From Lingula anatina (taxonomy: Eukaryota > Animalia > Brachiopoda), in assembly GCA_051362555.1 (NCBI GenBank), contig CM120649.1:1550001-1614000 (forward strand): a stretch of DNA of 64,000 nt, in the 5' to 3' direction. Every line of letters begins with the position of its first letter. The stretch's first letter is position 1. A model generated the notes under the pieces. It was given only the letters and a program-made list of their open reading frames with translations. It ran no database searches and was not told the origin of the DNA. Below are positions 7,299-50,931 of the stretch, in pieces. Position numbers and translations under genes: made by a program.

Positions 7299-7391
<93 letters not shown>

Positions 7392-8615: not shown

Positions 8616-8682
<67 letters not shown>

Positions 8683-9586: not shown

Positions 9587-9724
9587 ATCAAAGCCCTGTC
9601 ATTAAGAAGGTCATCAGTGAAACCTCAGCGGAGGTCAGTTGGGACATCTCAGAGGCAGCAAACTTGGGTCTCCTGAAAAACTGCCTTATAAAAAATCTGA
9701 ATTTCAAGCAGAGAGGAATTTCTG
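9587..9724 (+). other. Putative non-coding 5'-UTR exon of HEPN-STAND copy 1
   Basis: tttcag| acceptor and ctg|gtgaga donor; homologous to 39348-39494. Splicing to 17746 gives an in-frame TGA before the ATG, so it is non-coding. Confidence 0.45.
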
Positions 9725-12447: not shown

Positions 12448-12479
<32 letters not shown>

Positions 12480-13855: not shown

Positions 13856-13910
<55 letters not shown>

Positions 13911-26297: not shown

Positions 26298-27340
26298 ATG
26301 AATTACGGTTATGACTCATTCTTTTCAATGGTAAAAAATGTTAATTTTACAGTTACTCCATTTTTTAAGTCATAAATTCTTGAAACATCCTTTGAGTGGT
26401 AGCAACAAAATTGAGGCACAGGCACCCTGATAGTTTTATTATAAACAGTAAAAGCATCTCAAATGCTACACAGTTATTTTTTAATGATTCCAAAAACTGT
26501 GCATCTGTAACATTAACCATTTTACTCTATTGAAAAGATTGCACCATTATTGGATATAACCCAGGGTCTTTATGAAGTTTACTTTTAAAGGTAGTCACAA
26601 TGTCTTTAATACTACTGGACGTGGTATTATTAAGAGGCAAATTATAATGTCACTGAAATATTAAAACGCTATGTTATATGTTTTTAATTTGTTTGTAGTG
26701 TATCTTCCAGAATATCTTAACAAAGCATATCAAATATTGTTGGATTGAAAGATAAATTCCATAATATTGCACTTGCCAGAATTGAATGTACCAAGTTAAA
26801 TAGCTAATGATGAGTTATTTTATCCTCATTGTACTGTTATTGAATATCAGTGATGTGAACAATTGTTAGTGTTGCACTAGGCATTTGTTAACATTGTGAT
26901 GTAATGAAACTAATAATAAATTCATAAAGTAAAACAAAAGGGTTGTTGTTGTGCATTTTCTAAAACTACCCTCCCCTGCTTGTTAATCAGTGTCATCAAA
27001 TCCACAGTTTAAGTCAGTCATCATAGAATCTGTGCATATCTGCGGTGTAAATTCCCTTTAAGACCAAATTACTATGTCAAATGTATAATTTTAAGACATA
27101 ATTAGCTTATTAAGCTATGACAAAGGCAAGGGTGGTGCAATAAATAAGATGTAATGCATGTATTCACTGTTCATTAAAAGAGAAATGTCACACTTGAAAA
27201 AAATTGCCACGTACACACACATACACACACAAGCGCGCACGTACACACACACAAACGCACTGTTAGTACTAATTAAACTTACCTACATATCCATCAGGAT
27301 CCCTTCCATCCAGCTTGTCGGCGATAGTTTACCTTACCCC

Positions 27341-28734
27341 TGTGGCAGGAGTGCACGTCCCAGTAACGCAAGTCCGCCCGGAATGCAAGTCCTAGGGCAT
27401 GCAATGCTAGGAATGGAAGTCCTAGGGCATACGTTACTAGGATTTAATGTCCGTAGGACAAAGGCTCCCAAGTAATCTAAGTCCTACGTGTAGTAATGCA
27501 CGTCCTAATGGGACGTGCGTTCCTGACATTTTAGTTACGCATGTCCTATATAGTTTACACCAAGAAATTACATGAATAAATAGATATAGAGACATACTAG
27601 TTTTAAAGATATAATAAATGTTTGCTTTATTCTATTAATATGACATTTTATCTTTATATTTTACAATGTTTTCCGATAGGCAGTGAAGAAACAAAAACAA
27701 TTTATTTATTTTATGTGTATTTTACATCAAGAATACGCAAAATTTGACGTGTTAACGCATATTTTTGGCGTACTCCTCCCTCAGTGCACAATATGTATGA
27801 GCCTGGTTTGCCCGATATTTTTTTTTTAAACAAAATAAGTCACCATCCAAAGGCATCCCTTATTTTCATCCTGTGAGGTATATGTACAGTGTATATTATT
27901 TCATGTCCTTTTCTACTGGGGTGTACCTTTTGTGTCAAAATTCTTATTTTCTCTCCCTCTCTCTCTTTTTCAAAATCTTATTCCTAAGAGAAATATCACT
28001 TTACACAAAACGCGGGATTTCCGTTCTTAGATTTTTAATTCGGTTTACACTCGCTGAAATTGAAAAATAACCTCAAACTCGATGGAAATTTGCTCTTGGA
28101 AAGTATGGGCTGAGATAAAGATAAATCAAGACAGTTTAGAAATTGAAAATTGCAATATAAAAATATATTGCAATATGTATATAATGTTCTGTAATGACCC
28201 TTTGCTATTTTGGGGCTTTGATACTTAAAAAACAAAACAAAACAGTTGTAAATGTAATGAGTACGGAATTTCGAACACATATTAGACATTTAAAACACCA
28301 TTAAACATTTTGCTACAAGTAAGATATCGGGGTAAGAGGGGTGGGTGGGTAAGGTCAAGTCAAAGGTAGGTCTCGAACCCATAGATGCAATAGAACGACC
28401 TATGATATCTTACCATGTGGTCTTGCACGCTAACCACTACACAGACGAGCTGAAATTGCAATCCCCTCATTTTTTTGTCTGACATATGGCTCACCAGAAG
28501 GATTTCATATGCATTTATAGTTTTATCATTTAACAGTATTATTGCCTAGGACTTTCAAATGGCCAGACTTTTATTTCTGTCATAACATGAATAAAAGTCC
28601 AACAGTAATACAAGTCCTACCTACTCTAATTATGAGCCAGGAACTTAAGTCCCTGTAGGACTACTATTCCTAAGTAATGTTAGTCCTACGGACAACCATT
28701 ACCAGGTTCCTGGGGGACTTGGATTACTGTTACA
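27341..28734. mobile_element. Unclassified element with a hairpin module at each end
   Basis: 27341-27528: tgtggcaggagtgcacgtccca..tgggacgtgcgttcctgaca. 28600-28734: aacagtaatacaagtcc..ggacttggattactgttaca. Inserted in a C run. Confidence 0.5.
28365..28450 (-). mobile_element. tRNA-derived SINE-like head (Pol III A/B boxes)
   Basis: Minus strand tgtgtagtggtt (A-box-like) ... ggttcgagacc (B box GGTTCGANNCC). No full cloverleaf. Confidence 0.4.
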
Positions 28735-30037
28735 CCCCCTCCTTTTCTGTTGCACTCTTCCGAAGCAGATTTTTACCTGCAGCACATATATAAGCTGGGC
28801 AGTTTTACTATTCAGTCCACTCCTATTTCAGTGACTTAACAACATCAATTTTTCCATTTTTTTATTCAACATTTTTGTACAGTTTTTTACGTCATATTGA
28901 ATAATTATGACACGGTCCAACATGAAAGTTGTAAAAAACAAAGCGTCAGAGTTTAAATCTTTTGAATTCCTTGATGTGAATGTCTCCACCCGGAAAGATA
29001 TGCTGCATTTGATTCTGATATACCGTCCACCCTACTCAAAGAGGCACAAGTACACCGTATCTAGCTTCGTAGACGAATTTTCCAAGCTTTTAATATCCAC
29101 ATGGATAACGAGATATGCAGCGATGTTAGGAGGTTTAAGGACCTGATTGAATCAATGGGTTTGACTCAACACATCAGAACAGCCACCCACTCAAAGGGTC
29201 ATATCCTAGACTTAGTGCTGACTCGCACCGACTTCTGCCTTCAAAGTTTTACTTTAGACCACAGCCTTCCTTCAGACCATGCTGCAATCCACTTCGTGGC
29301 AGACCTTGTACGCCCGGAACCTTCAAAAAGAGTCATCCAACGTAGAGATATCTCGAAACGTGATCCAGTAATCCTAAATGATGCGTTTAAACATGTTTTT
29401 GAGGATGCAGAACAGACCACAGATCCAAGTACCTTAGTAGATCTGTATAATACGTCTATATCCAAGATCATGGAAGATATTGCACCAATGCAGACCAGAG
29501 TCAAGTTGGTGAAACAGAGGGCTGAATGGTTTACATCTGAACTCAGCGAAGAAAGGAAAAAGATCAGGAAGCTTGAACGTCAGTGGTGCAACTCAAAATT
29601 GGAAATACACCGGGAATTATTCAAAACTGCCAGAGCTAACTATCACACCCTCCTTGAAAAGCAAAAAACTGTACACCATCGGACCTGTATTGAAGGTGCT
29701 GATCAAAGGGAACTCTTTAGGATTGTGGACAAGATTTCAGAATCTAAGTCAAGCCAGCTAAGTGTGCTTCCTGACATGGAAATGTCAACACTTCCTCTAG
29801 TTTTTGCAGATTTCTTCACAAACCGGATCAAGGATATTCGTAAGGACTTAACTCAAAATGCTACCACAGGATCCTCAGAATCAGATCCATTACCAAGTGA
29901 ATTTCAAGACAGGTGTGCCAGTCAGGGTGGTGGGGCCCAACTGAGCAATTTCCTACCGGTCTCAGAGAAGGATATTATCTCTGTTATAAAGGGGATTAAT
30001 TCTAAGTTTTGTGCTCTGGATCCCATGCCAACATATA

Positions 30038-33000
30038 CAGTGGTCGGAATAATTTTGTTTCCGTTGTACACCGGTGTAACATCGTTCGAAATGGTTTAAT
30101 CCCTATCTTGTGAATAGAAGGGGGCGGACAAACAATGGAGGGCCGTATAAATCCCTTCAAAATTCGAACGCACAAACACAATAGCTTAGGTGGAATAACA
30201 CAATACTTAATACGAGTGAACCCCATGACGCCGGTTTCTGTGGCCCAGCGCGAGCGTGACAATACGCTGTAACTAGGTGTAATCAACAGCAGGATACATC
30301 AGCCAGAAGGTCCCTATTGTTTGTTGCGGCGATAGGATTATAGCTTGAAGAGGCTAAACCCATGCTAAGGCGTGCCACGCGAAGCGAACTGTCCTTTTGT
30401 TCACTAGTTTGGCACGCACAGCTGGTTTTTAGTGTTGCTAACAAACTGCTAGCTAAATTTGTTATCAGTTATTTCATCCTATATGAAATTTCCGCAGTCA
30501 AAAATTGAACTAATTATTGTTTGTTTGGTTGAAATGCATGAGCGTCAGCATCAATCTGTCTCAAAAAATTCCTACTGCATTAATTTATAAATGTATAATT
30601 CATTTATGTACTTACGTTTTAATTTGAAATATCTGCATTCAAGCGTTCAAGTATTTATAAAACATGAATGATAATGAAAGAGGAATAAGGAAATAACATA
30701 TTACTTATATTATGCTTATATTATAATATTGAAATTAAATGAGGTTCATTGACATAGGCGCAATGACAATCCAACTACAACGTGCAACAGGGGGATTCTG
30801 GCTGTATGATCATACAATATACGAAAGTACGGTCAATTAAAAGTGTAAATCATCAGTTAAAGAGGAGGGGGTCTTACTATAGCTCGCTATCTATTGTTAA
30901 ACCCGACTGTTATTATCTCTCGAACAAGCTTAAAGCATGCCTATACAATTACTGTGTCTCCGGCTGCCGTTCAGAAACACTATGTCGAACATATTTTGCT
31001 ACAGTGAGAAACATGGTACACTAGCGACTTGTTTTAGATCACTCAAGAAAGGATGCATACGTGCCACACCAGAGGAAAAACAATCAAGTATGCATCTGAT
31101 CCTTTAATAGTAATTGCACAGTGCATGTTACTAGACCTTTGTCCTAACTCAGTAGTTAGGAATAGGATGTTTGGATAAAAAGCTTCTATTCAACTCGCTT
31201 AGACCTAGGGCGTGATGCTATCATCCGATGAAACACGTAACTGAACCCTCTACCTGTACCTGAAGTCCCTTTAGCTGAAACAAAAACTGCCCCTTGAACA
31301 TGTCCATTTTTTAATCGTCAAATGATTTGTGATTTCATTGAACGTCTTTGATCGAAAGCTTTCAAGTGACAATAACCGAACCGTGTGTTGATTATATATT
31401 AAAGCGTAATTAAGTTTATTCAACATGATCTATTTTGTAAACGATACTTGCCAAGATTGAGCTTGGATTGATCACCGTCACTATTTAGCTACTCGCCTAT
31501 AATGCGTGCTGAACGACAGACAACTTAAAAATATTATCTGTGTAACTGTGCAAATGAACGCATTTAGTTAAAATATAACGAAGCCGGCATTTAATCCATC
31601 GAACATATTTATATTTGTTCTTTTAAACCCAGTGTAAGGTTAACGCAAAATCAAAGCAAGCCTTGCAGACTGGTTTTGTTTAAACTGTCGTGCATCAAGT
31701 AAATCTAAGTAAAGCCTGTTTCTACTTCGCAGTGTTCATCCCAGCCATAAAACTGCATGAAGGATAACAAGACTCCGTAGACCTGTTCTTCAGGTTTCCA
31801 GGAGTCCCGTGTAACACAATAATATCGAAGGCCTGAGAGTAATACATATATGAGGCCGTGTATGAAAGATTTAACAAATTAGAAATTCAAGAATTTATAC
31901 ATGCTTGGTACATGCACATCACTTAATAAGTCATTTCACAAAAATCGCATCTAATATTGTTTAGATTAACCTTTACTTTTATCGATCTCATCCCATTGCC
32001 TTAACCACCTAAAAGAAATATAGTGAACATGAGGAAAAGTAACACGTTTACATGCAGGCGAAGGAGTTAAACTTCAATATTAATCGCGAACAATATCAAC
32101 AGCGACTAAAGGCCGTTGTCTGTCTTTCACACTTTTACACAATCACACGAAGGTTTAATAAAGGGAGTCGCGACGCGATATCTATCTCTTTCATTCGAAC
32201 AAGCAAAGGGCTGACCCGAAGTAAGCTTTCTATACTAATGTCCTTTTTATTGTATATTGTAATTACTCTACTTGCTCGCCTCCATTGTCTTGTAAAAGTG
32301 ACAAAGAAAGTGTTGTATTCACACACGAGTTGAAAGAACTTTGCATAACTCCTTTGCCTTAAGTTGCATTATGTCTTTCTCAAGGTTATAATCAGTGTGA
32401 AGAGGGTGTCTTGCCTCATTTAAAAAGGGTGTTGTTCTTCATACTGGTTGTTGCTTAACTTATGCTAATCTTAAACTTTTATGTACCAATATGGTTTTAA
32501 TAAATCGCCAAAATTATGAATTTAATGAACATTGTGTATCACACGTTTTGATACGATTTAAATAAATGGACGAGGAGGATTACGGTATTAGGTTCTATTT
32601 ACCTCTGGCTTTAACTTCGCCCTGCTATATAAATGAACAAATGTTGCAGATCGTAACAAAAAACTTTCTTATAGTGTTTTATGACATATATGATTTACAC
32701 ATTTGATAGTGAAACACTCCTCGACTTTAACGAATCACCTGACGTAAACTGTCTACCCGCGCTCCCCGAAAAAACTGTTTCTTTTAATATTGAAATGAAT
32801 TGCTTTTAAGGCAAAGAAGTCCATTAAACCCTTTAGTCTCAACATCATTGTACAGCATGTTGTAATCGATATTTAAAAAAGTTAATTTTGTACTTCGCTT
32901 TCATCGAGGATACCTCAAGTTGAGGTTACAATTACATCGCTCGCCTATGCTACTGGAATATATATTTAAGGACAAATTAAGCTTTGTAAAGTCCCTATTG

Positions 33001-34428
33001 TCACACACCATAGATACTTTATTTTGTCTTGAATGAAAAAATAGCCTCAATTTATCGTTTTGTGCTTAAACCTTTCATTACTTGAAGCAAGATCTGTACT
33101 ATAGCTACCAAGACGTACATGCATCAAGTTGGGTCTGCTGGGGGAGGGGAGCATTTAAATGATAAACGAGGAAGTCTACCTGCAAAAGCAGCAGCAGTGG
33201 TTTAAATAATCGCTATCTAGACTCCTTTTTCTTTGACAGCAACATAAAAAGTGTTTAGGGAGAAAGTCACACAAAGACCCGACGTTGTTTTGTCTTCAGC
33301 ATTTCCTCTTCCTTGTTATCTGCAATTACTATCGTCAATTAATGAAATCGAGAAAGCAATTAAGTGACGGCACATTGAATATAGTCACTAGGTGCATTTC
33401 ACTGAGTGTTTACAAGATCTAGCGACACATTTTATCGCCACACGTTCTAGTTTAGAAAATTAAACAGTTACTCTGGCGGCTCTCCGTCATTGCTATGAAT
33501 CTGACATCGAATTTAGTCCAAAATATTAGTAAATTCAGATTTATTAGCTAAAACGTAAATTGCGCTAATTTGTCAGATAATCAAAAATGCCGGTGATCCA
33601 CGCGGAGGGTACGCTTTCCTGAAGGTAGCGGCGACGAACGGCGACGATATTTTTCTGAATAGTGAACCTTTATTAGTTACGAAAAGCCCCCTTTTCAACA
33701 GGCACGTTTTATTAATTACTTCATGTCACAAAGTTAATTTATACAGGCAAAACTTTATTCAAGGAAATAGTTTCACGAAATGAACGAGAGTAAAATATAA
33801 GTCGGCACAAATATAAGGCATACAACAATGAGTAATGTTATGGATCATGTTATGGGCCATGTCGGATTATAATGGCATACATGTACCTTGATGCAAAACA
33901 GTCTATCGTTTCTTCCACCGCGAGTTCCTTTATTTAATGTAATGTATTACTCATTACCCGTTTTATTTGACACTCTCTCTTTTTATCTCCCTTCCCCTTT
34001 CTCTTGTTAGAAGGAGGGTAAATAATTAAGCACTCAAAATCTGCACCACCAAACTTCAGAAAAACATAAGTCGACGAACCAGTGGGCTGATCCACAACAT
34101 CCGACACAGCAGAATGAATCAAATAACAGCTAGCACAAATTTATATGCAGTTAGCTATAGTGTCACTACATACATAATCAGCTGCACGCGCGAAGCTGTT
34201 GAACAAAAGGATAGTTCGCTACGGGAGACCGTTTGTTTACATAAGTACTCTAAGGGGGCGTGGCTACCCAGGCGACCAGGGGATTAGGCTAGTTACTATA
34301 TGCCGTCAACAATCGTTTAGCGACCTATCATTATACACTCTCTCTATTGTATTTTCCACCGCATTAATCGCAGTGTAATCTTCAAATGGTCCACGGGGTA
34401 AATGTACACATTCTTAATCCAAGTACGG
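30038..34428. mobile_element. 4.4-kb non-coding DNA element with TA TSD inserted in the LINE
   Basis: Removing it plus one TA restores aca tat ata gtg aaa gag. Ends are cagtggtcggaataa / ttaatccaagtacgg. A diverged subterminal inverted match pairs 30376-30425 with 34180-34230. Confidence 0.8.
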
Positions 34429-34630
34429 TATAGTGAAAGAGTGTATTAGTGTGTTATCTCCAGTTCTCCTGAGATAAGTAAATCTGTCTTTCTCAACAGG
34501 TATCTTTCCATCAAACTGCAAAACTGCAATTGTTAGACCATTACTTAAAAAGCAAGGGCTGTGTAAAAATGTCCTGAAAAACTATAGACCAATATCAAAT
34601 CTACCCTTTTTAGGTAAATTTCTTGAAAAA

Positions 34631-35938
34631 ATGGCATGTTCCCAACTAAGCAGCTATCTATCTGAAAATAAACTCTTTGGGAAATTCCAGTCTGCCTATA
34701 GAGAAGGCCACAGCACTGAGACAGCTCTACTTCGAGTCCACAACGACATAATGCTTGCCCTGGATAAACAAAGAGATGTCATTTTAGTTCTTCTAGACCT
34801 CTCAGTGGCTTCCGATACCATAGATCATAATATTCTTCTTCACAGGTTGCAGCATCGTTTTAGAGTGAATGGACTTGCACTTAGTTGGTTTACCTCTTAC
34901 CTGAAAAACAGAACACAAAGGGTTTCAATAGAGTCGGTTTTATCTCAGCCAGTTAACTTGGAGTACGGTGTCCCACAAGGGTCTGTGTTAGGTCCGATCC
35001 TATTCTCATTATACATGTTACCTGTAGAAGATATCATACTAAAGCATGGTCTGAACACTGTTATTTTTGCAGATGACACACAAGTATATATTACATGCAA
35101 GAGCAGCCAGTCTGCAACAATCACTTCTATGGAGACTTGTCTTGCAGAGATTCGAGAATGGATGAAAGTGAACATGTTGGCTTTAAATGATAGTAAGACT
35201 GAGTTGATATGGTTTACATCAAGGTTCAAGGCAAATAGAAAAAATGTAGCAATTGCCAACATTTGCATAGGAGATGTTCTTATAAAACCACCTAGTTCTG
35301 TAAAAGATCTGGGAGTTACCCTCGATGAAAATGGCACTATAAGCAAGCGTGCATCTGAAGTGTGTAAATCAGCATCTTATGCACTATGGCGCATTAGAAA
35401 AATAAGGAAAGTGTTAGATAACAAAACCACTGAAAAATTAGTACATGCATTTATATCATCAAGATTAGATTACTGCAATAGTCTCCTCTTTGGTATTTGT
35501 GACTATCAGATTAAAAAGTTACAAGTTATTCAAAACTCAGCTGCAAGACTGGTTTGTCAAATTAAGTACAATAGTACACACCATATCACTCCCATTCTGA
35601 AAGAATTACACTGGCTGCCTGTCAAGCAGGGGATTGATTTTAAAGTACTCTGTATTATTTTTAAGGCGATCCATTCACAAGGACCATTATATTTATCTGA
35701 TCTTATCTGTTTTAACTTACCACGGCAGTCCACACGTTTTAATACTGAGAATGATTTTATTTTAGAACATTCTGTTTTAGAGAAGGGGTGCCTAAAAAGT
35801 TATGGAGATCGTGCTTTTATAATCTACGCCCCAAAAGTGTGGAATGGTCTACCAAATTTTATTAGGAAAACAGAAGACTTTGACAATTTTAAATCTCTTT
35901 TAAAGACCCACTTTTTTAATTCTGTCTATATCTCTTAG
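34631..35938 (+). CDS. LINE reverse transcriptase ORF2 segment (L2-like)
   Basis: 435-aa ORF with the RT motifs listed for the LINE. Confidence 0.85.
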
Positions 35939-36810
35939 ATTTTATTTTAATATATATATATGTTTTTTTTTTAATAAGATTGATTTTTAGTAGTGTAAAT
36001 TTTAAATGGTTTCCAATGAGAGTTTATGATTAAAATATTGTAGTCATTTTAATGATTTTAGTATATTAGCCACTATTGTAAGGCGCCTTGAGATAGAATG
36101 TAAGGCGCCATATAAGAATCTTATTATTATTATTATTATTATTAATTATTTTTTTTAAATTTCATTCCGCTCTTGTTGTTTTTTCATCTTCAAAAATATC
36201 CTTAACACAGCTCAAACCTATCATTGATATAAATACTAATTTTAAAAGCCTTCTCAGGACTGCTGGTCCACTCCAGGATTTTCTTTGCCCAGTACATTCT
36301 GAGGAATCCATGCATCTTGCCCTCCTTTACCATTTGTAGCCAGGAAAATGAGACCAAGTACTCGGGAATTCATCTGTTAATACATCAAGGATAATTCGTA
36401 TTGTCGATTTTCAGCCCTCTTCATTATTGATAGTGATTTTATAATTGTATTTTACTTTTCAACTGAGTCACTCAACTAAAGAAAATATGTATTCCATGCA
36501 ATGCCCAACCAGGCAAATGTCCTGCAAAATACAGTTTAAAATGTTATAATGCACTCCTTCCATAATCTTTTCATAAAAATGCCGATATTTTAATTTCTTG
36601 ATTTTTCCTCAAACAGAATGATGTATGCATTTTAAATAGTTTATCAATAAATTCATTTTATTTGTTATTACTTTATCTAAAATTTGGTGTATCAATGGGA
36701 AATTTGTTTAATGCCCGAACAAAAAAGAAAATTAAATACATGTAGCCTAGGTTCCTATATTCAGCGAAAAGGTCCAGCAATTAAGAGAAAGTAAAGATAA
36801 ACTTTAGGCT

Positions 36811-37551: not shown

Positions 37552-37825
37552 CCCTCTACCAGGGCGACTGATAGATTTTTACAGATATTCACAGATATGT
37601 CTCTAGCTAGATAGATGGTCATTTAGGGCTCAACTCACCCTGTTGAGAAATCTCAAGGCTGATTACATGGCTGGTAATTGTTTGCATAACTGCTCAGGCA
37701 CTGCCACTTAGCAGGTCCAGTCTAATAAGTCATTCACACTAGCACTTTTGACCGCGGTCAAACTATCTAGCTAGAGACATATCTGTGAATATCTGTAAAA
37801 ATCTATCAGTCGCCCTGGTAGAGGG
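37552..37825. mobile_element. Young MITE, ~63-bp perfect TIRs, TA TSD, just downstream of the photolyase stop
   Basis: ta|ccctctaccagggcgactgatagatt...ctagctagatag and ctatctagctag...cagtcgccctggtagaggg|ta. Confidence 0.85.
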
Positions 37826-38150
37826 TATGGGCATGCAGTGGTTATATACTAGTAATATGAAACTGTCTAAACTGAATTGGTTTGTTTTTAACTAACTGTA
37901 GGCTCCTCATCAAGAAGTTACATTTGATTCTCTCATGTATAAAAACAAGAATATCAAGTTTTCTTCCAATCAAAAATAAGCCTACAGAAAGGGATAGAAT
38001 TTTAATATACAAGGTATGAGGTCTTGAATCCTTGATATTCAAACTTCCCAAAATTGATCAACTGCCTTTTGTATCAGAGAACTCCATGATCCATATTTAT
38101 CATATGTTACCCAAATGTCTGTTCTTTAAAAATGAACATGGCTACAGATA

Positions 38151-41100
38151 TCAGTGCTTCTTTCCTTCATATTTTCTGACGAAAGCTGGGACATCAAATT
38201 TCCTTTTGCATCCTTGATAATTCATGAAGCGTATCTTTCCAAACACAGGTCTCTCTCCCCATCCCTGGTCATGAATACCACATATGCTCCACATACAACC
38301 TGCAAAAATCAACATCAGATTTGTAATTGAATTGTTGAGGATATACAGTAATTCATTAAGATGAAATTATTAGCATTATGTCATGAACTTGATTGGCTAT
38401 ATAAATAACATGAAGAATAAGTATGATGACCATATGGGTCAACAAGTGTAAATCCCCCCACCACCATCACCACCACCACTTTCTTTTAGTGTGAACGTGT
38501 AGTGATTGAACCCAGTAATGAGCTAGCTGTGTAAACCAAAATCAAAATCCAGGTCAACAGGATGGGAGAGGGTGTTAATCTATCCAGATTCATTACACAT
38601 ACTCACACAGAGACACACAAACACACACTGATGCACACGCACAAACAAATTCACTGACACCCATTCACACACACATACACACACAGACACTGACACACAT
38701 ATGCACTTACATATTCACTGAGAAAGTCCCACTGACACACACAACAACAACAACAACAACACACTGACACTTGCTGAGATCATGACAGTCACAATATTTA
38801 CTAAAACAGGCTAGAGTCTGCACATGTAATAATTAACATTTTTTACCTCAATAATGACAACAAAAGCAGTCTGCTTTTCCAAGGGTTGCATTAAGCATTC
38901 ACTGTGTAAACAAAAACCATGATAAACTCCACACAGAAAGATAAAGCTATGTTTAGCACAGTGCTTTGCAACTTCAGGACTTTAGACTTAACGCCCTCTC
39001 CTCACATGAAGTAGGAAGTCGATCCATAAACAGGTAAAAGAAATATAAAATATTATATATTGTTGATTACTGGATACATGGAAACTTTTGGAGCATTAAA
39101 ACTTTTACCTAACTGAAGATTCTCAGTATTAAGTTTTTTTTTTCTAAATGCCAAAAGTGTCTTTTACCTGGACAGGTATACCTGCTACTCAATGTACTTA
39201 TGACATCTACTTAGTACACAGCTAACCAATTATTTCTACAGGTAAGAGAATTCTTCCTCACCAGTAGAAAAGCACGTTGAGCAGTCTTTATCAATTAACA
39301 AGAGGTAATTACTATGTATCCATAATATTCCTTTATATCATTTTCAGAACAAAGCTTTGTCATTATGAAGATCACTGGCACCTGAAACCTCAGAGGAGGT
39401 CAGTTGGGACATCTCAGAGGCAGCAACCTTGGGTCACCTGAAAAACTGCCTCATAAAAAATCTGAATATCAAGCAGAGACAAACTCGCTCCAAGGTGAGT
39501 AAATATGAAATAATGCCTGAGTGTCCAACGTCCTAAATATATGACATTGGAGTTTGGTCTGCTTTACTAACTGCCTTACGGTTTTGTGACTACAGGGTCA
39601 GAGAGGGGCAGTCACTTCCTAGGTATGTACCAATAGCTAGGTTTGCCATATCAGTGATATAATACCACATAGTCTGAGAGATAGTTTCAGGAGGGTCCCA
39701 ATGTGTACTTTCAATACCCATGAAAGCCACTTTCACTTCCCAGAGAGGCGTGAAACCTTCACCTCATAAAGCGTGATTTATGAAGCACCGCATTTTTGTG
39801 ACTAGTGAATGTGGGTTTTAATTTTCTGTCCTTTGTGAAATGAAGTCATCAATGACTCGTAATTTTCAGGAAATTGATATGCATTATCATTGAGATAAAT
39901 AAAGGTTTATTTACTGTGATTTGTGAATTGATGATTTTATTTCCCAGGAACTGTGATCACTACTCCCCCATGGAACCCTAAAAAAATTCGACCAGTGCAA
40001 TCAATACGACTAAAAAAATATATATTTTCTATAACTTTTTTGTCTAGGCTCAAACATTTAGACCAAACGTCATAATTCATGAGACAGGATTTTTTACTTG
40101 TTCTGATGGTTCGACCATATTGCAGCCAAGACTTGGTACATTTTCAAGCCAGTGGAATAGATGCTGCATGCCTCGGCCATTTGTCAATTATTGTGCTTTC
40201 AACAGCTCTCGTCAATGAGGAAGAAACAATTAACTGACGCTCTTATCTGGAAGTGGGACGTACAGTTTGTCCTAATTTAGCAGAATTGCATGCGCTGATT
40301 GATTTGTCTGGCCCGTGACTTGGCAGGGTGGGGTGGTGGTGCATTTTGAAGAATAAAAAAGGTCTGCTCGCGGCTAAACCAAAGTGGGTCCACAGTTGGA
40401 TATTTCGTAAAACACCTTCATATAGACCTAATAGCATTTGCTAGCAATAAAAAAGTTTGAGAACAATAACTAATCTATTTCAAGTTCAATTGAAATATAT
40501 GCAGATGGGGATACGTTCTTGAAGTCAAATATCACGAGATCCTATGTTTACTACAATCATTCGACCAAAAGATCGGTAGGATTGACCGTCCAGACTTCTT
40601 GGCGCCAAACACCATGTGCTGTCAAATTCTGATGAACATGTGTGAGCTTTTCACCTACATGGAAAATTGATTTGTCAACCATAAAAATGACGTCTTCCTC
40701 GTCTCCTTTTAAGAAAATTATCTATATGACAGTGAGAGAGGCATGAAATATTGATATTATTTAGTGTAATTCGTGAAAAAATACCCATTCCTGTGACCCC
40801 CTCTCCCCCAATAGGACCGTCTTCAATAACATGTGGTTTGCACTAGGCATACTGGAGCAGACCAGATCAGAACAGTCTCTCATTTTTGTGTTTGCCTGAT
40901 TCTAACAAATTATGAATGCACCTGTTTTGTGAAAATTATGGCAATTAAATGCTTATTTTAGGTTCAGGCTGTATAAGTGTTTTTTTTTTTAATATGCACA
41001 GGGACTTGTGCACAACTAGATTCTTTGAGATTAATTAATTAATCTTGGTTGAATTGTTTGGCATATTACCATATGTTACAGGTTTCTACCACCTCTCATT

Positions 41101-44100
41101 TGTTTTTCTCCTTGTTATTTTCATGAGACATGCTTGAAATGGTAGTCTGATATTATTAATTGTCTCTTATTACCATATTCACATATAACTTTTATATTAT
41201 TTATAAAATATTTCAATAATTATTGATTTCAGAGGCGAAACAATGGCATTATCAAAACCTTTCCTCAAACCTCAAATGGATGAGGAACAAGAGAATTATC
41301 TTCGCATGAGAGTGTTTCTGGAGCGTGCTACAGATGTTCTTAGAGATGTACTGACTAGCGAATTACAAAAAGCTTATCCAGGGGACTTTGACCCTTCCAC
41401 AGGAATATTGTATAATGTTCTGAACATCCCAGCTGTAGCAAAAAACTTACTTCAGTTAAGTAGGAGAAATGTTCTGAATGCAAGCCAAAAGCAGATTTTG
41501 TATCCAGCTGGGGCCCCTTCCTCAACTGCAAAAACAAATGATTTTGATGTTACCTTGACTGTCCTGCTATTACGCAATATAACCACACTGAATCCAAGCG
41601 CCCAATGGGACAAGCCTCTCAGCACTGACCTGTCCACAGAAGCTGACATTGGTCGAGTGAAGACATATCGTAACAAACATATGCATAGTGTGGCCAGGCT
41701 TCCAGCAGCAACATTTCAAAGTGACTTTGAGGGTCTCAAGACAGTACTGCTACGCCTGTCAAACATTTATACAGACCAAGACTATGACAGGGTACTCATT
41801 GATCCAATACAAACCTCAGGTATACAATTTTGAAATTAAAAAAGAAAACTTTTACAAAGATTAAATTATATTGGCTGCATATAATTGCTTACATTTATTT
41901 TTAATTAAAAATATTCAGTTTTCTTGCTAATGAATTGATACATAGCATAGGTGATTTATTTCCACAGAGAAAATGTTTAACTGTTTCCAGCACAAGAACT
42001 ATCAAGAAAATGATTACTGATTAATGATTACACACAATGAAAATAATAATAATAATAATAAAACAAATGAATTATTAAGACGAGTATTTTTTTTTTTTTT
42101 TTTTTTGGGGGGGGGGGGGGGGATGATTTCAATACCAGATGAAAGCTTAATTGGTTCTCTTATTTTGGCCAGGATGAATTTTGGAAAAAAGGAATTCTAG
42201 AAGAAATCTAATATGGTATATAAAATGTTTCTTGTTTATATTGTTATGCTGAAATAAGTACCAATGTTCCAATATTATTTATTCAAAATACTTATTCCGT
42301 TCAAATTAAGTTAAATATTGTATACATTGTTTCAGGAGTACCTACCACTTGTCAGCTCATGTCCATGAACCTCCCTAGAAAAGACAGTAACTTTTGTGGA
42401 CGAGAGGATTTGCTGACAGAGATCCAACAAGATGTAGAGAACTCAGAGATTGTGCTCCTGACAGGGATGGGTGGTATTGGCAAGACCAGCATTGCTGTAG
42501 AGATGGGGCATCGCATGAGTGAAGAAGGTAGAGATGTTTTCTTTCTAGACATGAGGCAGGTTAAAAATCTAGATTCTTTTCAGTTATCACTGGTGCAACA
42601 CTACAATCCTAAGATGTTTTTGAAAGAAATATATGGCGATTATCAAAACTTATTTCAAAAGGCTCTTTCTGAGATAAACTCGTCAACTGTGGTTATTTTT
42701 GACAGCATTGATCATTTTATAAGAGCTAAGAAAGCAGAACAGTTTTTACAATTATGTCAGGATATGTTGAAAGCATCAAAGCACATCTCATTAGTTTGTA
42801 CAAGTCGCCAATCATTTGACCTCACATCTGTGAAAGTAAACGAAAAAGCAATATCCCATCTTGATGTTAAATCATCAACTTGGCTACTATCAGGTGGGGC
42901 TTCTGCCCCCCAAACAGAAGAACAGGCTAAAATCTTGGAAGAAGTAGCTGCTAGATGTGGGTACTGTCCTCTTGCCTTGAAATTACTAGCACCTCAAATA
43001 AAAAAGAAAGGAGGTTTGCGAATGCAAGAGAAAATAGACAGAAAGGGTGTTCTTGAAGTAGCAGATACATCTGAATTTGAAGGAATGAAGTCAACTTTTG
43101 AAATATCATTTGAAGCATTGTCTAGTAGTGAAAAAGATATGTTCTGCAATCTTTACATATTCCCAGTGTCGTTTCATTTGACTGATGTTTCAAACATTCT
43201 CCAAAAAGAAGAGGGTGAATGTGAAGACATTCTTGATAGTCTTACATCCAAGTCCCTTGTAAACCAAGTGAGTGATCAGGTTTATGATCTACATCCCCTG
43301 TTAAAGGCTTTTTCTGATTCCCAAGCAAAACAAATTCCAGATAAAATACCAAAGATGGAAATTTCATACTGCAAATATTATGGTGAAAGGGCAGCTTTAC
43401 TGGTAGTAATATTTGAATCCACAGTTCCAAAATTTGCAAATGAAAGAGCAGAAATCATACTTCCACATTTGTTGTACAGTGGAAAACTTTTGCTAAAACA
43501 TCTAAGCCAATACCTTCAAAATGAATCAACAAGCACTACTGCACTAGTCAAGGATGTTGACATAGATTATGATGATTTCATACTAAGGCTTCTGGCCATA
43601 ACCAATGTATTGAGACAAATGTATTTGTTAAATGAGCCTCTGTACCTATTAAAAGAGTTAGCAAATGTTCTAAAAACAAAACAAAACGTGCTTCCTAACA
43701 GAAAAACCAGAATGCACTTATCTTCAGTATATCACAGTATTGGGACAGTTTTGTTTGTGATGGGTAAGTATGACGCTGCATTGGAATACCACAAGAAAAG
43801 TTTTGAAATATGTAAAAAGCTGCTTGGCACCCAGCACACTCAAACCGCTGGAACATACAGCAATATTGGTCTTGTGCTACATGAGATGGGTAAGTTTAAT
43901 GACGCATTAACATATCAAAATAAAGGTCTTGAAATACAAGAAAAGGTGCTCGGTACCAACCACCCTTGTACTGCTTTACCATACAGCAACTATGGAAATC
44001 TGCTACATGACATGGGAAAGTATGATGATGCATTGACATATTACTGGAAAGGTCTTGCAATTCAAGAACTGCTGCTGGGCACCAATCACACTGAAACTGC

Positions 44101-47100
44101 TGGCTCATACAGCAATATTGGTCTTGTGCTATATGCCATGGGTAAGTTTAATGATGCATTAACATATCAAAAGAAAGGTCTTGAAATACAAGAAAATGTG
44201 CTAGGTACCAACCACCCTGAAACTGCTGACTCATACAGCAATATTGGTCTTGTGCTACATGCCATGGGTAAGTATGATGATGCATTGACATATCACATGA
44301 AAGGTCTTGAAATACATGAAAAGTTGCTAGGTACCAACCACCCTAAAACTGCTGACTCATACGGCAATATTGCTAGTGTACTATGTTACATAGGTAAGTA
44401 TGATGATGCATTAACATATCAAATGAAAGGTCTTGAAATACATGAAAAGGTACTAGGTACCAATCACCCTAAAACTGCTGACTCATACACCAACTATGGT
44501 GCTCTGCTACGTAAAATGGGCAAGTTTAATGATGCTCTGACATATCACATGAAAGGTCTTGCAATTCAAGAACAGCTGCTAGGTACCAATCACCCTCGTA
44601 CTGCAGCCTTATACGGCAGAATTGGTGTCCTGCTTCATAGCATGGGTAAGTATGATGAGGCATTGACATATCATATGAAATGTCTTGCAATTCAAGAACA
44701 GCTGCTAGGCAACAATCACACTAAAACTGCTGGCTCATACAATAGTATTGGTCTTGTACTACGTAGCATGGGTAAGTATGATGATGCATTGACATATCAC
44801 ATGAAAGGTCTTGCAATTCAAGAACAGCTGCTAGGCACCAATCACACTGAAACTGCTGGTTCACACAGCAATATTGGTATTGTGCTACATGACATGGGTA
44901 AGTATGATGATGCATTGACATATCAAAAGAAAGGTCTTAAAGTACTTGAAGAGGTGCTTGGCACCAAACACACTAAAACTACTCAGTTATACTTCAACCT
45001 TAGTATTTTACTACTTGACATGGGTGAGAATGCAGAGTCTCTTAAATATATGAAGAAGGCACTTGATACATATGAAACACATTGTGGTGTCAAGCATGAA
45101 AAAACGGCTTCATGTTACCTAGTTATTGGGAAAACGTTTGTAGCTGTGAGGTTGTACAGAGATGGAGTTCTTTATTTGAAGAAATGTGTATCAGTTCAAG
45201 AAGAGTTACTTGGTCTGACTCACCCCAGTACAATAGATACATGTAAAAAGATTGGTGCCGTTCTTATACAGATGGGTCAATTTGCAGAAGCAATTGAGTA
45301 TTTCGAAAAAATTAACTGGAACATTGTCATTGACAGAATCGTGTACTTTTATCCACCCTCACCCTAAACTCGACGTGGAATTTGGAATGATGTATATATG
45401 AAAAACAATAGGGACCCAAGCAGGAATCAAATATTTAAGCATAATGTATATACAAACATTCAGTTAAAGAAAATATGTATCTGATGGAAATCATCTGGGA
45501 AAATCCCTTAAATGACCTGTTACATCAACATATAACTGAGCTGAAGTTATGCTAAGATACATATACCTTGTTATGTGTATACATGTTCATGTCTGCTTTC
45601 AACAGTTTAACAGCCCTGAACCTGTACAATACCAGCTTGATTATATGTAAATATGTGTATGAGTGTGTGCATTTGTTTGTGGGTGTAAGAAAGAGTAATT
45701 CCTTTTTTTTTACTGAAAGATAAGGAAAATTGTATCAGACTGCCATTTTAAACCATGTCTCATCAAAATAACAAAGGGGTGGGAACAATTTGTTACATTG
45801 ATCAAGTGCTTTGATGACTTTCCATTCCTGAATATCAATATATTTTAGAGCAAATAGCTGTACAGAAATAATTAGGGTAGCATTTGATGAATATTTTACT
45901 ATTCAAAGCATAGAAATATATCATTTCTCCCACAGTTGGTGCTTTGAACAAGATGATAATATGTATTGCATGTGTATTTCAATTACTTGCTCACCTGTAT
46001 TTTCATAAGCTTCTGTGCTTTCAACCTTTTGTTCAAAGTGCCAGTCATGGGATAAGTCAGATACAACTACTGGTTGTCCACTGTACACGACATACAAAAG
46101 CACACATTTTATCTGGGCTGCGCCTTGGCATACGTACACTTTTATATGTCGAATACAGCGGAGGACTATGTAGTAACTAGTGTAAAATGTAAACTTGTTT
46201 TTTTTTCAAAGCATAAAGGCATTGTTTGTCATATAAGTGAACTCTGGATTTCAACGAAGTTTTACATAGTTTTAGCAGCACGTTCTGTCAAAGAACTGAA
46301 ATAGTGAAGGACTATATCGCTATTTCCCATCATTTGGGTTAACTGACTTTAGAACTCTTTGCTGCAACTTGAAATCCATTATCTTATATATTGTATATCA
46401 GATAATTCATATAACGGTGTCTTTATGATGTGTATATTGAAGGATAGTCATCATAATGTCTCAAATACAACTGGTTGTGGTATTATTAAGAGACAAATTA
46501 TTATGCATGTATTCATGGAAATATCAAAAACCCATGTTACATGTTTTAATTTGTTCACAGTGCGTATTCCAGAATATTTTAAAAAGATATTTTTCTATTA
46601 CTGTCAGTTGGAGAGTGATAAAGAGAGAAATCCATTATACAGTATATAATGTGATGTAACTAGATGTAGGAAGTTAAATTGCCATTAATGATGAGTTATT
46701 ATAGCCTCATTGTACTGTTATTATCTACTAGTATAAGTGGTCTGAACTATGGTAGTGTTGCACTAGACAACTGTTAACATTGCGATGTAATAAAACTAAT
46801 AATAAATTCTTAAAGTAAAACAAAAGTGTTGTTGGGTATTTCTTAAAATTACTCTCCCCTGTTTGCTTCATGTTAATCACTGTCAAAAAATCCAAGGGTG
46901 TATTTCTTTTAACTACTCTCAAGTGTTTGTTAATGTTTTAACATATTAATCAAAATAAACATAAAAAAATCATTATGTTAAAAGTCAATCAGAACTGAAT
47001 ATGTGACTCAGAATCAACATTTGTGGTGTTACATATAAAAGGAAAAACTTCCCCTTAGGACCAATATCTCTGCCAAATGTACTCTTTTAATACATCATTA

Positions 47101-50100
47101 GTTTATCTAGCCATGTCAAAGGCAATGGAGGCACAATGTATAAGAAATAACGCATGTATTTGCATTGCTCATTAAGAGAGAAATGGTACACATGCAAAAA
47201 CGAATTGGAAATGCACACAAACACACACACACACACATACATACATACACACAATCACACGTACACACATACACATTTGTACTAATTAAACTTACCTACA
47301 TATCCATTAGGATCCCTTCCGTCCAGCTCATACCTATCATTGAGATAAATACTAATTTTCAAAGCCTCCTCAGGACTGCTGGTCCACTCCAGGATTTTCT
47401 TTGCCCAGTACATTCTGAGGAATCCATGCATCTTGCCCTCTTTTACCATTTGAAGCTGGGAAAATTAAGAGGGGTTCACTATTATTTTTGCAGTATAATA
47501 GTGACAAAGCATCTTGAAATGATTAAAGATTTTTTGAAAAATGACGTCATTAAGTGAATTTGTACAGTTTTTCCATAGAACTGCCACATTTATATATTAA
47601 ATATCTGAAATGCCAAAATGAATCACACTTGATTCACAATGGAGAAAACATTAGTTAACTAAAATTTTCATTAAAATAATTGACTTATTATAGCTTATTA
47701 TAAGACAACACATTGAATGAATCATAATAGCTTGCTCTGCAAGCTGCATATTATGTAATATTCAGCACAGTGACCACACACCAGGCAAAAATACACCTGC
47801 TTTGTATGCAGTTGAGTGTGACCAAAATATTTAAACAAGTAAATCTGTTTAAGATGTGATTTATTTTATTTTTATATTTATGCATGGCCTAAGGGGAGAA
47901 ATCAACCCCTTCCTCCAGCAACCCCCCCCCCTCCCACTCCACCCCCAACACACACACACAAGTTTAAACCATGTTAATCATTTGTTCAGGAAGCAGGTGG
48001 TTAAAAGGGAAGTCCCCCCCCCCCCCCCCCCCCATGCATGCCATGAAAAATCTATAGACGTAATCTTCATAACATGCACAATTTCAGAATCAACAAAATG
48101 AAGGGAAATTTAAAATATATTTCCGGGTGACCTAGTTATACCTGTGCTGCATTCCAGAGATCGTCATGTGTTTTCCCTTCCTCCAACTGTTTACATGTGT
48201 AAACGTACTCGCGCTTGTCACTGGCATGTTTTCGTAACGTCTCCTTGGCCCAGACATATGCACCTGATGGCATTAAAATCAAGGGCATGCAACGAACATT
48301 ATACTATTTATTTTTGAAATAAAATCTTTTTAAATCTTCCACTATTCCTTAACATACCAAAAGTTGAGAACTATCACCCAGTTTTTGTGTTTTTTAGCGT
48401 CAAGATTCTGGGTCATTTTTGCAATGGATACACAGACTGATTAATTTCACTAATGTAGTCAAAAATTATAAACTTTTCAAAAAAATATAAATTCAGAACT
48501 CAGAAAAATGGATCAACCATGCTTACTTTCAAACACATCTGAAAAAATAACATTATTCAATTTTTGACAAATCTACAATAAATTCATCCCTGCGGAGTTC
48601 AAAAATGGCCCATTTACTCACACTCTATGGAGTCATAGTTCTCCACATAGTAACAAAAATTATCCGACAATTCTCTCCTTATGATGGATTCCTCCAGGAA
48701 AGCATCTCCTCCCTCTTTGAACTTGGACTTGAACTGTTTGACTACCAGGGCACACCTCTGGGCTGACACCTGGCCTGGTTAGAGGAATATTAAAACTGAT
48801 AAATATACTGATTAGAACTTTTTTTTCTTCAGTCAACAGATAATATATATTGATATAGTTTTTAACTCAAATATTTCGATGTCTAACAGATCATCTTCAT
48901 CAGGGAAAGAGGCTATCCAGGTGAATAGCCACTGCTTGGAAGATATGCTGCCCCCCCCTCCCCCCCCCCCCCCCCCCCCAATATATACTGATATAGTTTT
49001 TAACTCAAATATTTCGATGTCTAACAGATCATCTTCATCAGGGAAAGAGGCTATCCAGGTGAATAGCCACTGCTTGGAAGATATGCTGCCCCCCCCCCCC
49101 CCCAATATATATTGATATAGTTTTTAACTCAAATATTTCGATGTCTAACAGATCATCCCCATCAGGGAAAGAGGCTATCCAGGTGAATAGCCACTGCTTG
49201 GAAGATATACTCCCCCCCCCCCACACACACACACACACACACACACCTATTGTCTTAGCTGTTGACTGAAGAAAATATATTCTTATAACATAACACAGCT
49301 GAGGAATTTCTTCTCTGATAAACATTTTATTTTACTATACTTCTATATAAATATATACTATAACCTGGTAATAGGAGGCATTGCACTCTTCTGATAAATA
49401 TATAAATATGAAATAAAGTCATAACAGATTTATATTGTATTAGCATAGAAATTTGTTTTGCCAAGAGCATATTGAATGACATGGGCAATCATGGAGTTTT
49501 TTGAATTTTTTGTCTCTAGCCTTCTCGTACAGTGTGCCACTCTTACCTGAACAACAAGCTTAAATGAATGGCTTCTAGGTAGAGGGGAACATACTATAAG
49601 CACGGAATAAAATCATAAATCTAAAAATTTAAGATCCTTTCATTTTTCTACATTTGAACAATGAACATACAAGAACCCTGTAACACCTGCGTACCAAAGT
49701 GAATCCAGGGGGAGAGATTACTGCAGGCGTTTTTATTGGGGTTGTTTCTGTCCGCGTTGAAGAACTTCAGGCGCTCCTTGCAGAATGTCTCCAGCGTTCT
49801 CAGCCCTGCTGTGGTTCCCGGCGACGCCCACTTCACCTCCGTCACCGTCCGGTCAATCTGTAGCGATGCCTTGGCAGCCGACCAGTCAACTGGCTGAAAT
49901 ATCATTAATGAATTCATATACATTTTACTTAAGTATCTATTAGAAAATTTTCACTGGAACTCTTGACCATATGGTCTAACTGCCAGGGTGCCCTGCAGGG
50001 TGCTCACCTCAATATAAAAATAATACCTACTTTGTCCTTCCTATGCACTCAGCATGTAATAACATTACAGAGGACAGATAATGTGAATGATAACTATACA

Positions 50101-50899
50101 CTCAGCATATATTATTATAGAGGATGCTCTCTAGGAATGATAAGTATGACCACATTTGCTACTGCCATGATTTTGTGCTCCTCAGGGAGGTGAGCTTATT
50201 CCAGAATTAACAGATCTACATAAACCAGGCATACCTTGTAAACCTAATTTTTGAAAACGCCTTACCTCAGCCTTGGTCTTGGCAGCGTAAGGGTGCCGTA
50301 TGACAGGAGGGAACTCTGTGAGGTACTCCGGCAGTTTACTCTGTATTTTATTTCTGATTGTTCTGGCACCATACTCTCTCTTATCAGAGGCTTCCCAACA
50401 GGGCACGATGTTATGGGCATCCACCTGGGAGAACAGAGAAACAGAATTTATTGGGAAAGTCATCTTAAAACACTAGACTGTCAAATTCCTAACTGTTTAC
50501 TGGTAAAACAGGGAACAATGTTATGGGCATCCACCTTGGAGAACAGAGAAACAGAATTTATTGGGAAAGTCATCTTAAAACACCAGACTGTCAAATTCCT
50601 AACTGTTTACTGGTAAAATGTCATTTTATGTCAAAACAAGAGAACACTTCAAGAGCTCAGACTAAGGACAAAAACAATATAAATATTTAATTAAAAATGT
50701 TAGGGGAAACTTAGATTCAGTTAAAATAGCAATCATTTTTTCTAGCTCTCTGAAGACAAAAAAGGAATGTACTTTAACATGGAGTTTTTCAACCAGCCAC
50801 CACTCTCAAATAAGTTAACTCTATGTCATTAAGAGTGAAAAGCAACTCTAAAATACAATAATAATAATAATAATAATAATAATGCTCATACTGCTACTG

Positions 50900-50931
<32 letters not shown>

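What the first reader, a model, noticed from the sequence alone, without database searches (positions are those of the whole stretch)
38151..47455. The immune-like gene is nested antisense inside the last intron of CPD photolyase
Seen: photolyase exon 10 (47296-47455, ..[10 protein letters not shown]) has its only available continuation, [13 protein letters not shown].., at 38151-38299. That makes an 8996-bp intron, whereas all other introns are under 1 kb. The whole HEPN-STAND-TPR copy 2, including its putative UTR exon, lies in it on the opposite strand. Inference: convergent transcription could couple or anti-correlate a light/UV-repair gene and a toxic RNase sensor. Alternatively the intron is just a safe harbour for a rapidly turning-over NLR family.
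Basis: partly seen in the sequence, partly recalled or inferred. Interest (0 to 1): 0.78.

Follow-up and report, generated by a model that had tools for sequence, protein, structure and literature searches.

The report
Immune-like gene inside photolyase's last intron
An immune-receptor-like gene lies backwards inside the 9-kb last intron of a lamp-shell DNA-repair (photolyase) gene, RNA reads show that intron being spliced out, and a neighbouring duplicate that likely kept working outside the intron suggests an ordinary tolerated nesting rather than a regulatory link.

Summary
Observation confirmed. The class II CPD photolyase (minus strand, 526 aa, 8 differences from a Lingula anatina RefSeq protein) has an 8,996-bp last intron; its other coding introns are 358-920 bp. 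27 stranded RNA reads from 17 starts splice it in one step. A HEPN_DZIP3-STAND-TPR gene (inferred 1,202 aa, Rx4H motif intact) lies antisense inside it.

So the nesting predates a local duplication. Copy 1, now outside the photolyase transcript, shows purifying selection (dN/dS 0.22-0.32 in HEPN and STAND, no internal stop, one untested frameshift), so the intron position seems not to be required.

Coupling is untested: immune-gene reads appear only in 2 unstranded runs of 6. Antisense nesting is common in animals, and HEPN_DZIP3 immune-like genes are known. One oddity remains: the dead exon is more conserved than its flanks, which could mean two ancient alleles were placed in tandem.

The parts
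47296..53028 (-).
   Evidence: Open frame and GT-AG sites; 8 of 526 residues differ from L. anatina XP_013382193; 38 RNA reads join 47455 to 48142
38300..47295 (-). Last photolyase intron, 8,996 bp, host of immune-like gene copy 2
   Evidence: 27 reads from 17 starts in X11 skip it, ends CT..AC
38151..38299 (-). Last photolyase exon with stop codon; AATAAA at about 38006
   Evidence: Matches 3umv 437-477; RNA depth; poly(A) motif scan
39348..39494 (+). Putative non-coding exon of copy 2 (AG acceptor and GT donor; not the proven first exon)
   Evidence: 87% identical to 9574-9714 over 145 nt; low read depth in X17 and X18 only
41233..41819 (+). Copy 2 HEPN_DZIP3 exon (ATG at 41243, 192 aa, R143-N-K-H-M-H148)
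   Evidence: PF18738 103 bits, cut-off 27; R and H both kept in 68 of 74 aligned relatives
42336..45367 (+). Copy 2 STAND NTPase plus helical linker plus 42-aa TPR array, open frame to the stop
   Evidence: ORF; TPR_12, TPR_10 above cut-off, NB-ARC 22.5 bits under cut-off 23.5; 10 repeats found by pattern
36208..36339 (-). Dead duplicate of photolyase exon 10, 5' part; acceptor reads GG instead of AG
   Evidence: 94% identical to 47324-47465 over 142 nt; RNA reads laid here carry the live exon's letters
27316..36207 (.). 8,892-bp nest of repeats splitting the dead exon, flanked by a 5-bp direct repeat; holds a LINE-like element itself interrupted by about 4.4 kb
   Evidence: Ends; RVT_1 108 bits in 34478-35935; an X2 contig skips 30042-34435
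27283..27315 (-). Dead duplicate of photolyase exon 10, 3' part with its donor site
   Evidence: 2 differences in 39 nt against 47290-47328
22317..25208 (+). Copy 1 STAND-TPR exon, one TPR repeat shorter than copy 2, with a one-base frameshift in a T run at 22599-22606 (real or assembly error: untested)
   Evidence: X2 holds exact pieces 23285-24227 and 24698-25069
17746..18332 (+). Copy 1 HEPN_DZIP3 exon (ATG at 17756, R-N-N-H-M-H)
   Evidence: PF18738 104 bits; 88% identical to copy 2, dS 0.265, dN/dS 0.22
9587..9724 (+). Copy 1 putative non-coding exon; homology to the copy 2 block runs out near 8800 (equivalent to about 38800), before the place of a last photolyase exon

Best explanation
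A HEPN-STAND-TPR gene, predicted to be an immune sensor with an RNase effector, lies antisense in the spliced last intron of photolyase and is likely a tolerated passenger there rather than a regulatory partner. Shown: the 8,996-bp intron is spliced in one step; the inner gene has an open frame and intact motifs; a local duplication copied the gene together with photolyase exon 10; that exon copy is dead and unused in the reads. Inferred: a member of this dispersed, fast-changing family landed in the intron before the duplication; the antisense orientation keeps its splice and poly(A) signals mostly invisible to photolyase processing; the duplicate kept functioning outside the host transcript, so the nested position is not needed. 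Predicted from family knowledge, untested: the variable TPR array binds a foreign ligand, the STAND domain swaps ADP for ATP and oligomerises, and paired HEPN domains cut RNA.
For: Junction reads. Duplicated block 8797-27315 plus 36208-36349 matches 38813-47465; an X1 DNA contig runs from exon-10-like sequence into 36400, so the duplicate's edge also exists in short-read contigs. Copy 1 versus copy 2: dN/dS 0.22 (HEPN), 0.32 (STAND, both pieces). Copy 1 has 0 internal stops in about 1,150 codons; a simple simulation expects 11.7 at 0.075 neutral changes per site and 6.5 at 0.04, the level seen in the dead exon (P of zero 0.0025; 0.036 at 0.02). No X12 depth over copy 1 at 23067-25067 and almost none in X11 at 36400-36800, so copy 1 is outside the photolyase transcript in those runs. 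Eleven Lingula relatives were found (9, 2); their longest-contig sizes all differ from the three photolyase scaffolds. In Drosophila nearly 10% of genes are in nested pairs, 71% on opposite strands, with inner genes faster evolving and less co-expressed with their hosts (PMC3814207 abstract; PMC5174743 passages). TPR repeats are more alike within copy 2 (0.79) than between copies (0.70), as in fungal NLR-like genes (PMC4986451 passages).
Against: The nested copy is compact and open, while the outside copy has introns swollen to about 8.0 and 4.0 kb (versus 1.7 and 0.5 kb) and a frameshift; this could mean the nested position helps. In 6 RNA runs the pattern leans to mutual exclusion: photolyase high and immune gene absent in X11 and X12, immune-gene reads with low photolyase in X17 and X18. 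The dead exon differs at only 8 of 159 nt, fewer than a simple duplicate-and-die history predicts (P 0.06 to under 0.001 by assumed age). The HEPN model (pLDDT 96) had no Foldseek match at E 0.001 or better. The same intron in other species could not be examined.
Confidence: 0.72

Rival explanations
1. Two deeply diverged alleles of the same photolyase intron, each carrying its own version of the immune gene under long balancing selection, were later placed in tandem by unequal exchange. Exon 10 stayed alike because it was live on both haplotypes until then. This changes the history, not the passenger role.
For: Dead exon: 5 non-synonymous and 3 synonymous changes in 159 nt, against non-coding divergence 0.22-0.29 in four flanking blocks and immune-gene dS 0.15-0.27. 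High identity is confined to the exon and its splice signals. No Lingula database protein is over 85% identical to either copy in the HEPN and STAND parts compared. RefSeq holds two partial photolyase models, one ending exactly at this donor on a 2,839-bp scaffold. Pearl oyster HEPN_DZIP3 genes differ between haplotypes (PMC9646362 passages).
Against: Later gene conversion from the live exon 11 kb away explains the same counts; synonymous changes (3 of 29 sites) are at or below the deep-split expectation (P 0.03-0.37); one of them is shared with live alleles in RNA reads. No single-copy or empty haplotype was seen among the listed joints of X1 or X2 (10 joints were not shown).
Confidence: 0.17
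2. The nesting is selected as a regulatory device: convergent transcription makes light-repair and immune-sensor expression mutually exclusive, or UV and light cues that open the locus prime the sensor.
For: Convergent layout (sequence); the nested copy is the compact, open one; read pattern in 6 runs is compatible with exclusion; transcriptional interference is reported for nested Drosophila genes (PMC5174743 passages).
Against: The outside duplicate stayed under selection; relatives are dispersed; X17 and X18 hold reads of both genes at similar low depth; runs differ in study, individual and library; in the cited work interference is a cost of nesting, not a function; a mammalian study reports no expression divergence (PMC8467205, search listing only).
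Confidence: 0.08
3. The layout is an assembly artefact: a misjoin makes the long intron, or two haplotypes were laid in tandem as a false duplication.
For: The animal is polymorphic (many fixed differences in RNA reads); no listed contig spans the whole stretch; X1 and X2 may come from the assembled animal.
Against: RNA reads join the two exons as assembled; an X1 contig crosses the duplicate's edge at 36349/36350 and continues to 36400; the second exon 10 has a lost acceptor and an 8.9-kb insertion, so it is not a live allele; X1 and X2 hold exact pieces of both blocks.
Confidence: 0.03

Closest known systems
Nested protein-coding gene pairs of animals (Drosophila: PMC3814207, PMC5174743)
   Same: Inner gene wholly in a host intron, opposite strand, inner gene fast-evolving, host conserved.
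   Different: The inner gene has introns and is large (about 6 kb); the host's other introns are short; a later duplication carried a host exon along with it.
DZIP3/hRUL138-like HEPN proteins (PF18738; PMC3710099, PMC9646362)
   Same: N-terminal HEPN_DZIP3 with Rx4H and N after R, fused to an NTPase and C-terminal repeats; lineage-specific expansion.
   Different: The NTPase hits NB-ARC, AAA and nSTAND profiles weakly; NACHT is not among the 25 best Pfam hits shown; repeats are 42-aa TPRs, not LRRs.
Lingula anatina LOC106161156 (XP_013393483, P0001) and its paralogs
   Same: Same architecture; 82-85% identical in HEPN and 81-84% in STAND; groups with both window copies at 100/99-100 support.
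   Different: On a 319-kb scaffold that is not one of the three with an annotated photolyase; not a near-identical ortholog of either copy.
Fungal NB-ARC/NACHT-TPR NLR-like proteins (PMC4986451)
   Same: Effector-NTPase-TPR layout, internally similar repeats, repeat-number difference between copies, a few highly variable repeat positions.
   Different: Internal identity (0.79 at DNA level) is under that paper's 85% protein cut-off; no selection test was run here; HEPN effector; animal host.
Class II CPD photolyase (rice 3umv; L. anatina XP_013382193)
   Same: Contiguous match across the junction; 98.5% identical to the Lingula protein with the same C terminus.
   Different: Only the size and content of the last intron.

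Membership tests
Class II CPD photolyase | Full-length open frame with photolyase domains, collinear with solved class II enzymes | tested here: met
Class II CPD photolyase | Light-driven repair of pyrimidine dimers | not testable with these tools
   Needs an enzyme assay
Nested gene pair | Host intron is really spliced | tested here: met
   27 reads, 17 starts; 15 more reads in X12
Nested gene pair | All known exons of the inner gene lie in that intron, on the other strand | tested here: met
   39348-45367 on plus inside 38300-47295; strand from frame and splice signals, not from stranded reads
Nested gene pair | Transcription start and end of the inner gene lie inside the intron | tested here: inconclusive
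   No RNA depth at 38405-38805 or 38408-39074 in any of 6 runs; AATAAA at 46789-46954; ends not mapped
Nested gene pair | Inner gene is transcribed | tested here: inconclusive
   Depth of about 1-4 in X17 and up to about 7 in X18, both unstranded, mostly copy-2-like letters but not assignable to this locus; no splice join of the inner gene listed
DZIP3/hRUL138-like HEPN | PF18738 above curated cut-off | tested here: met
   103 and 104 bits against 27
DZIP3/hRUL138-like HEPN | Rx4-6H motif | tested here: met
   R143-H148 in both copies and 68 of 74 aligned rows
DZIP3/hRUL138-like HEPN | HEPN fold | tested here: inconclusive
   All-helical model, pLDDT 96; no Foldseek hit at E 0.001; the two best TM-scores among rows shown are AbiF (0.44) and Csm6 (0.38) at E above 1
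DZIP3/hRUL138-like HEPN | RNase activity | not testable with these tools
   Called putative in the passages read of PMC9646362
NLR-like STAND receptor | Effector-NTPase-repeat architecture | tested here: met
NLR-like STAND receptor | NB-ARC or NACHT profile above cut-off | tested here: inconclusive
   NB-ARC 22.5 bits against 23.5; relative P0065 passes at 27.4; P-loop, acidic strand, GxP-like and DLHP motifs present (labels recalled)
Canonical NLR (NACHT or NB-ARC with LRR) | Leucine-rich repeats | tested here: not met
   The C-terminal array is TPR; no LRR among the 25 best of 45 Pfam families shown
Co-regulated sense-antisense pair | Exon-on-exon overlap | tested here: not met
   No predicted exon of either gene overlaps the other
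Co-regulated sense-antisense pair | Linked expression in the same samples | tested here: inconclusive
   6 of 9 RNA runs laid, 6-26% of each read, confounded by study and individual

The most novel reading that the evidence does not exclude
The last intron of an essential DNA-repair gene is a long-lived balanced immune locus: haplotypes carry HEPN-STAND-TPR alleles about 20% diverged at silent sites, and this genome has captured two of them in tandem, with the second allele's host exon left behind as a dead marker.
Probability: 0.17. Interest if true: 0.6.

Novelty: new member of a known kind. Interest (0 to 1): 0.3.

Why it matters
As best explained it is a clean but ordinary case of gene nesting. 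Its use is as a natural experiment: sister copies of one immune-like gene inside and just outside a host intron let one test whether nesting changes expression or decay. It also warns annotators that the photolyase needs a 9-kb intron and that a dead exon 10 lies downstream. If the two copies are captured ancient alleles, it would show plant-style balanced receptor polymorphism sheltered inside a housekeeping gene of a brachiopod.

Tried and rejected
Alternative last exon in the window: none by tblastn or blastn. Second copy of the last exon left of copy 1: none in 1-9600; it may be lost or lie beyond the window. Whole-genome search: no genome is held for this window, so the genomic places of paralogs and the same intron in relatives stay open. 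Near-identical database ortholog of either copy: none among proteins of 554-1766 aa or 30-553 aa with STAND sequence, best 77% over 470 aa; HEPN-only short models were not searched by name. Frameshift of copy 1: reads and the contig laid there carry copy-2 letters at 6 neighbouring sites, so they do not test it. Copy number from contig depth: rejected, the tool says depth is no copy number and contig letters are mosaics of both copies. Pfam gave no hit for the two short terminal photolyase exons alone. The structural comparison with the second aligner did not run, so the HEPN fold stays unconfirmed. Earlier scan findings: 0 by place, sequence and words. Literature: 0 papers for photolyase + nested gene + intron; 3 for Lingula + photolyase, none on this by title or abstract start; searches listed nothing on this locus. 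The pearl oyster supplement, which may hold counts for Lingula, could not be read.
Full report
Observation. The photolyase lies on the minus strand in ten coding exons from 53028 to 38151. Joined at GT-AG sites they give an open 526-aa frame; the introns are 449, 439, 497, 580, 372, 920, 358, 686 and 8,996 bp (one search was a first try with boundaries off by one or two bases). The exon at 47455-47296 matches rice class II photolyase 3umv residues 383-435 and the exon at 38299-38151 matches 437-477. No other copy of the last exon is in the window. Exon 4 hit a Lingula anatina photolyase at 98%, and the whole protein differs from the full-length RefSeq model XP_013382193 at 8 of 526 residues, with the same C terminus. 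The window is therefore from Lingula or a very close relative (inference).

RNA test. Nine RNA runs with the same species label were listed; none is on record as a holder. Six were laid, 6-26% of each run being read. In X11, 27 reads from 17 starts skip exactly 8,996 bases with CT..AC ends and 38 reads join the previous exon, all with the first mate on plus, as expected for a minus-strand RNA in a stranded library; X14 and X17 did not reach the listing threshold for this joint. In X12, 15 reads link the last exon to exon-10 sequence.

The inner gene. On the plus strand inside the intron lie a putative non-coding exon (39348-39494), a 192-aa HEPN exon and a 1,009-aa STAND-TPR exon, joined by a split Gly codon into an inferred 1,202-aa protein. 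PF18738 scores 103 bits (cut-off 27); TPR families score far above cut-off; NB-ARC scores 22.5, just under 23.5. The Rx4H motif is intact in both window copies and in 68 of 74 aligned rows, which were the two window exons, P0066 and 71 of the 150 listed hits, picked for short length. The model is confident (pLDDT 96) but Foldseek found no match at E 0.001; AbiF and Csm6 appear only as weak rows. Reads on this gene were seen in X17 and X18 (unstranded, depth about 1-7 per bin), none in X11 and X12, and one or two in X14 and X15. They carry mostly copy-2 letters but also letters of copy 1, so they show expression of the family, not of this locus. The RNA comes from other individuals, with fixed differences even in photolyase exons, so a diverged or missing immune allele could also explain a blank.

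A self-comparison shows that 8797-27315 plus 36208-36349 repeats 38813-47465 in the same order. The repeat includes the non-coding exon, both coding exons, the downstream flank and a second copy of photolyase exon 10. That copy has GG in place of the acceptor AG and is split by 8,892 bp flanked by a 5-bp direct repeat; the insert holds a reverse transcriptase frame. RNA reads that land on it carry the live exon's letters at all four listed sites (37 of 37, 39 of 39, 40 of 40 and 40 of 40 reads in X12) and run on into exon 9, so it is not used in these reads. An X1 contig runs from exon-10-like sequence into position 36400, and X2 holds exact pieces of copy 1, so the duplication is not only in the assembly; X1 and X2 may still be the assembled animal. 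Because both immune copies have exon 10's donor side on their 3' flank, the nesting is older than the duplication (inference).

Age and selection. Copy 1 and copy 2 differ by dS 0.265 in HEPN and 0.15-0.185 in STAND, with dN/dS 0.22 and 0.32; the linker before the repeats reaches 0.75. Four non-coding blocks differ by 0.22-0.29 and the non-coding exon by 0.115. Copy 1 has no internal stop. A simple equal-rate simulation expects 11.7 stops at 0.075 neutral changes per site and 6.5 at 0.04, the non-synonymous level of the dead exon (chance of none 0.0025; 0.036 at 0.02). So copy 1 likely stayed under selection after its host exon died, that is, outside any working photolyase intron. Against this, it has one extra base in a T run that shifts the frame, untested by the reads, and much longer, repeat-filled introns.

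Family context. The STAND search gave 9 Lingula relatives among 48 hits and 2 shorter ones. The closest, P0001, is 81-85% identical to both copies in HEPN and STAND and groups with them at full support; the copy 1 plus copy 2 fork has 87/86 in the STAND tree and is unresolved in the HEPN tree. By longest-contig size none of the 11 shares a scaffold with the three RefSeq photolyase models; that assembly is fragmented, so this is weak. TPR repeats are more alike within copy 2 (0.79) than between copies (0.70), copy 1 is one repeat shorter, and a few repeat positions take up to 6 residues in 9 repeats.

Mechanism. The best reading is a tolerated passenger: a member of a dispersed, fast-changing receptor-like family sits antisense in the intron, where its processing signals face away from the host, and the host splices round it. 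Six AATAAA motifs on the photolyase strand inside the intron do not prevent full-length splicing in X11. Ligand sensing by the TPR array, nucleotide-driven oligomerisation and RNA cleavage by paired HEPN domains follow from family knowledge (partly recalled) and were not tested. Regulatory coupling is possible but has no positive test: the read pattern fits exclusion yet is confounded, and both genes have reads in X17 and X18.

Unexplained. The dead exon differs at 8 of 159 nt (5 non-synonymous, 3 synonymous). If it died at the duplication, 14-27 changes are expected for total divergence of 0.15-0.29 (P 0.06 to under 0.001). Either it was converted later from the live exon, or it stayed functional for much of the time, as it would if the two blocks were long-diverged alleles later set in tandem. 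RefSeq has a partial photolyase model ending exactly at this donor on a 2,839-bp scaffold, so the intron's content on that haplotype is unknown and could be P0001.

Comparison with the known. Nearly 10% of Drosophila genes are in nested pairs, and inner genes evolve faster and are less co-expressed with hosts (PMC3814207, abstract and opening text); 71.3% are on opposite strands (PMC5174743, passages). DZIP3-like HEPN domains fused to TPR, NACHT and other immune domains are listed in PMC3710099 (passages) and are expanded and haplotype-variable in pearl oyster (PMC9646362, passages; its supplement could not be read). Concerted evolution of TPR repeats is described for fungal NLR-like genes (PMC4986451, passages). 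PMC8195603 was read in passages and gave only general context. Searches found no paper on this locus, but the library lacks most subscription papers. The scan's earlier findings held nothing.

Verdict. Real, correctly located, and a new member of two known kinds (nested gene pair; HEPN-STAND-TPR receptor-like gene). The duplication with a dead host exon argues for the passenger reading and lowers the interest to about 0.3; the captured-allele reading stays open at about 0.17.

Noticed in passing
window 3362-9328: Several degenerate direct copies of the region upstream of the immune gene's non-coding exon (matches to 38796-39328 at 5255-5946, 6473-6783, 6880-7120, 8812-9318), with an exon-like piece near 7620-7703; suggests repeated small duplications of the promoter region.
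   Followed up: partly
window 51582-51680 and 50507-50618: Short tandem copies of the end of photolyase coding exon 3 (with its donor) and of the start of coding exon 5 (with its acceptor) lie in the neighbouring introns, 91% and 96% identical; possible decoy splice sites.
   Followed up: partly
window 18457-21378: An element with 806-bp inverted ends at 95% identity sits in the second intron of copy 1.
   Followed up: no
window 56022-56970: Array of about six 161-bp repeats, with a related single piece at 17390-17608.
   Followed up: no
window 59550-60880, plus strand: Exons of another gene facing away from photolyase; the frame at 59550-59918 looks like a BRICHOS/ITM2-type protein (label recalled, not tested).
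   Followed up: no
window 37550-37827: Palindromic repeat just past the photolyase 3' end, with reads on both strands in all six RNA runs and very deep DNA contigs; a common small mobile element.
   Followed up: partly
window 38151-48263: RNA from other animals under the same species label differs at several photolyase exon sites in all reads (for example 36 of 36 at 47315 and 47321), pointing to strong population or cryptic-species divergence.
   Followed up: no
window 3882-4944: Element with 235-bp inverted ends at 83% identity interrupting one of the upstream copies.
   Followed up: no
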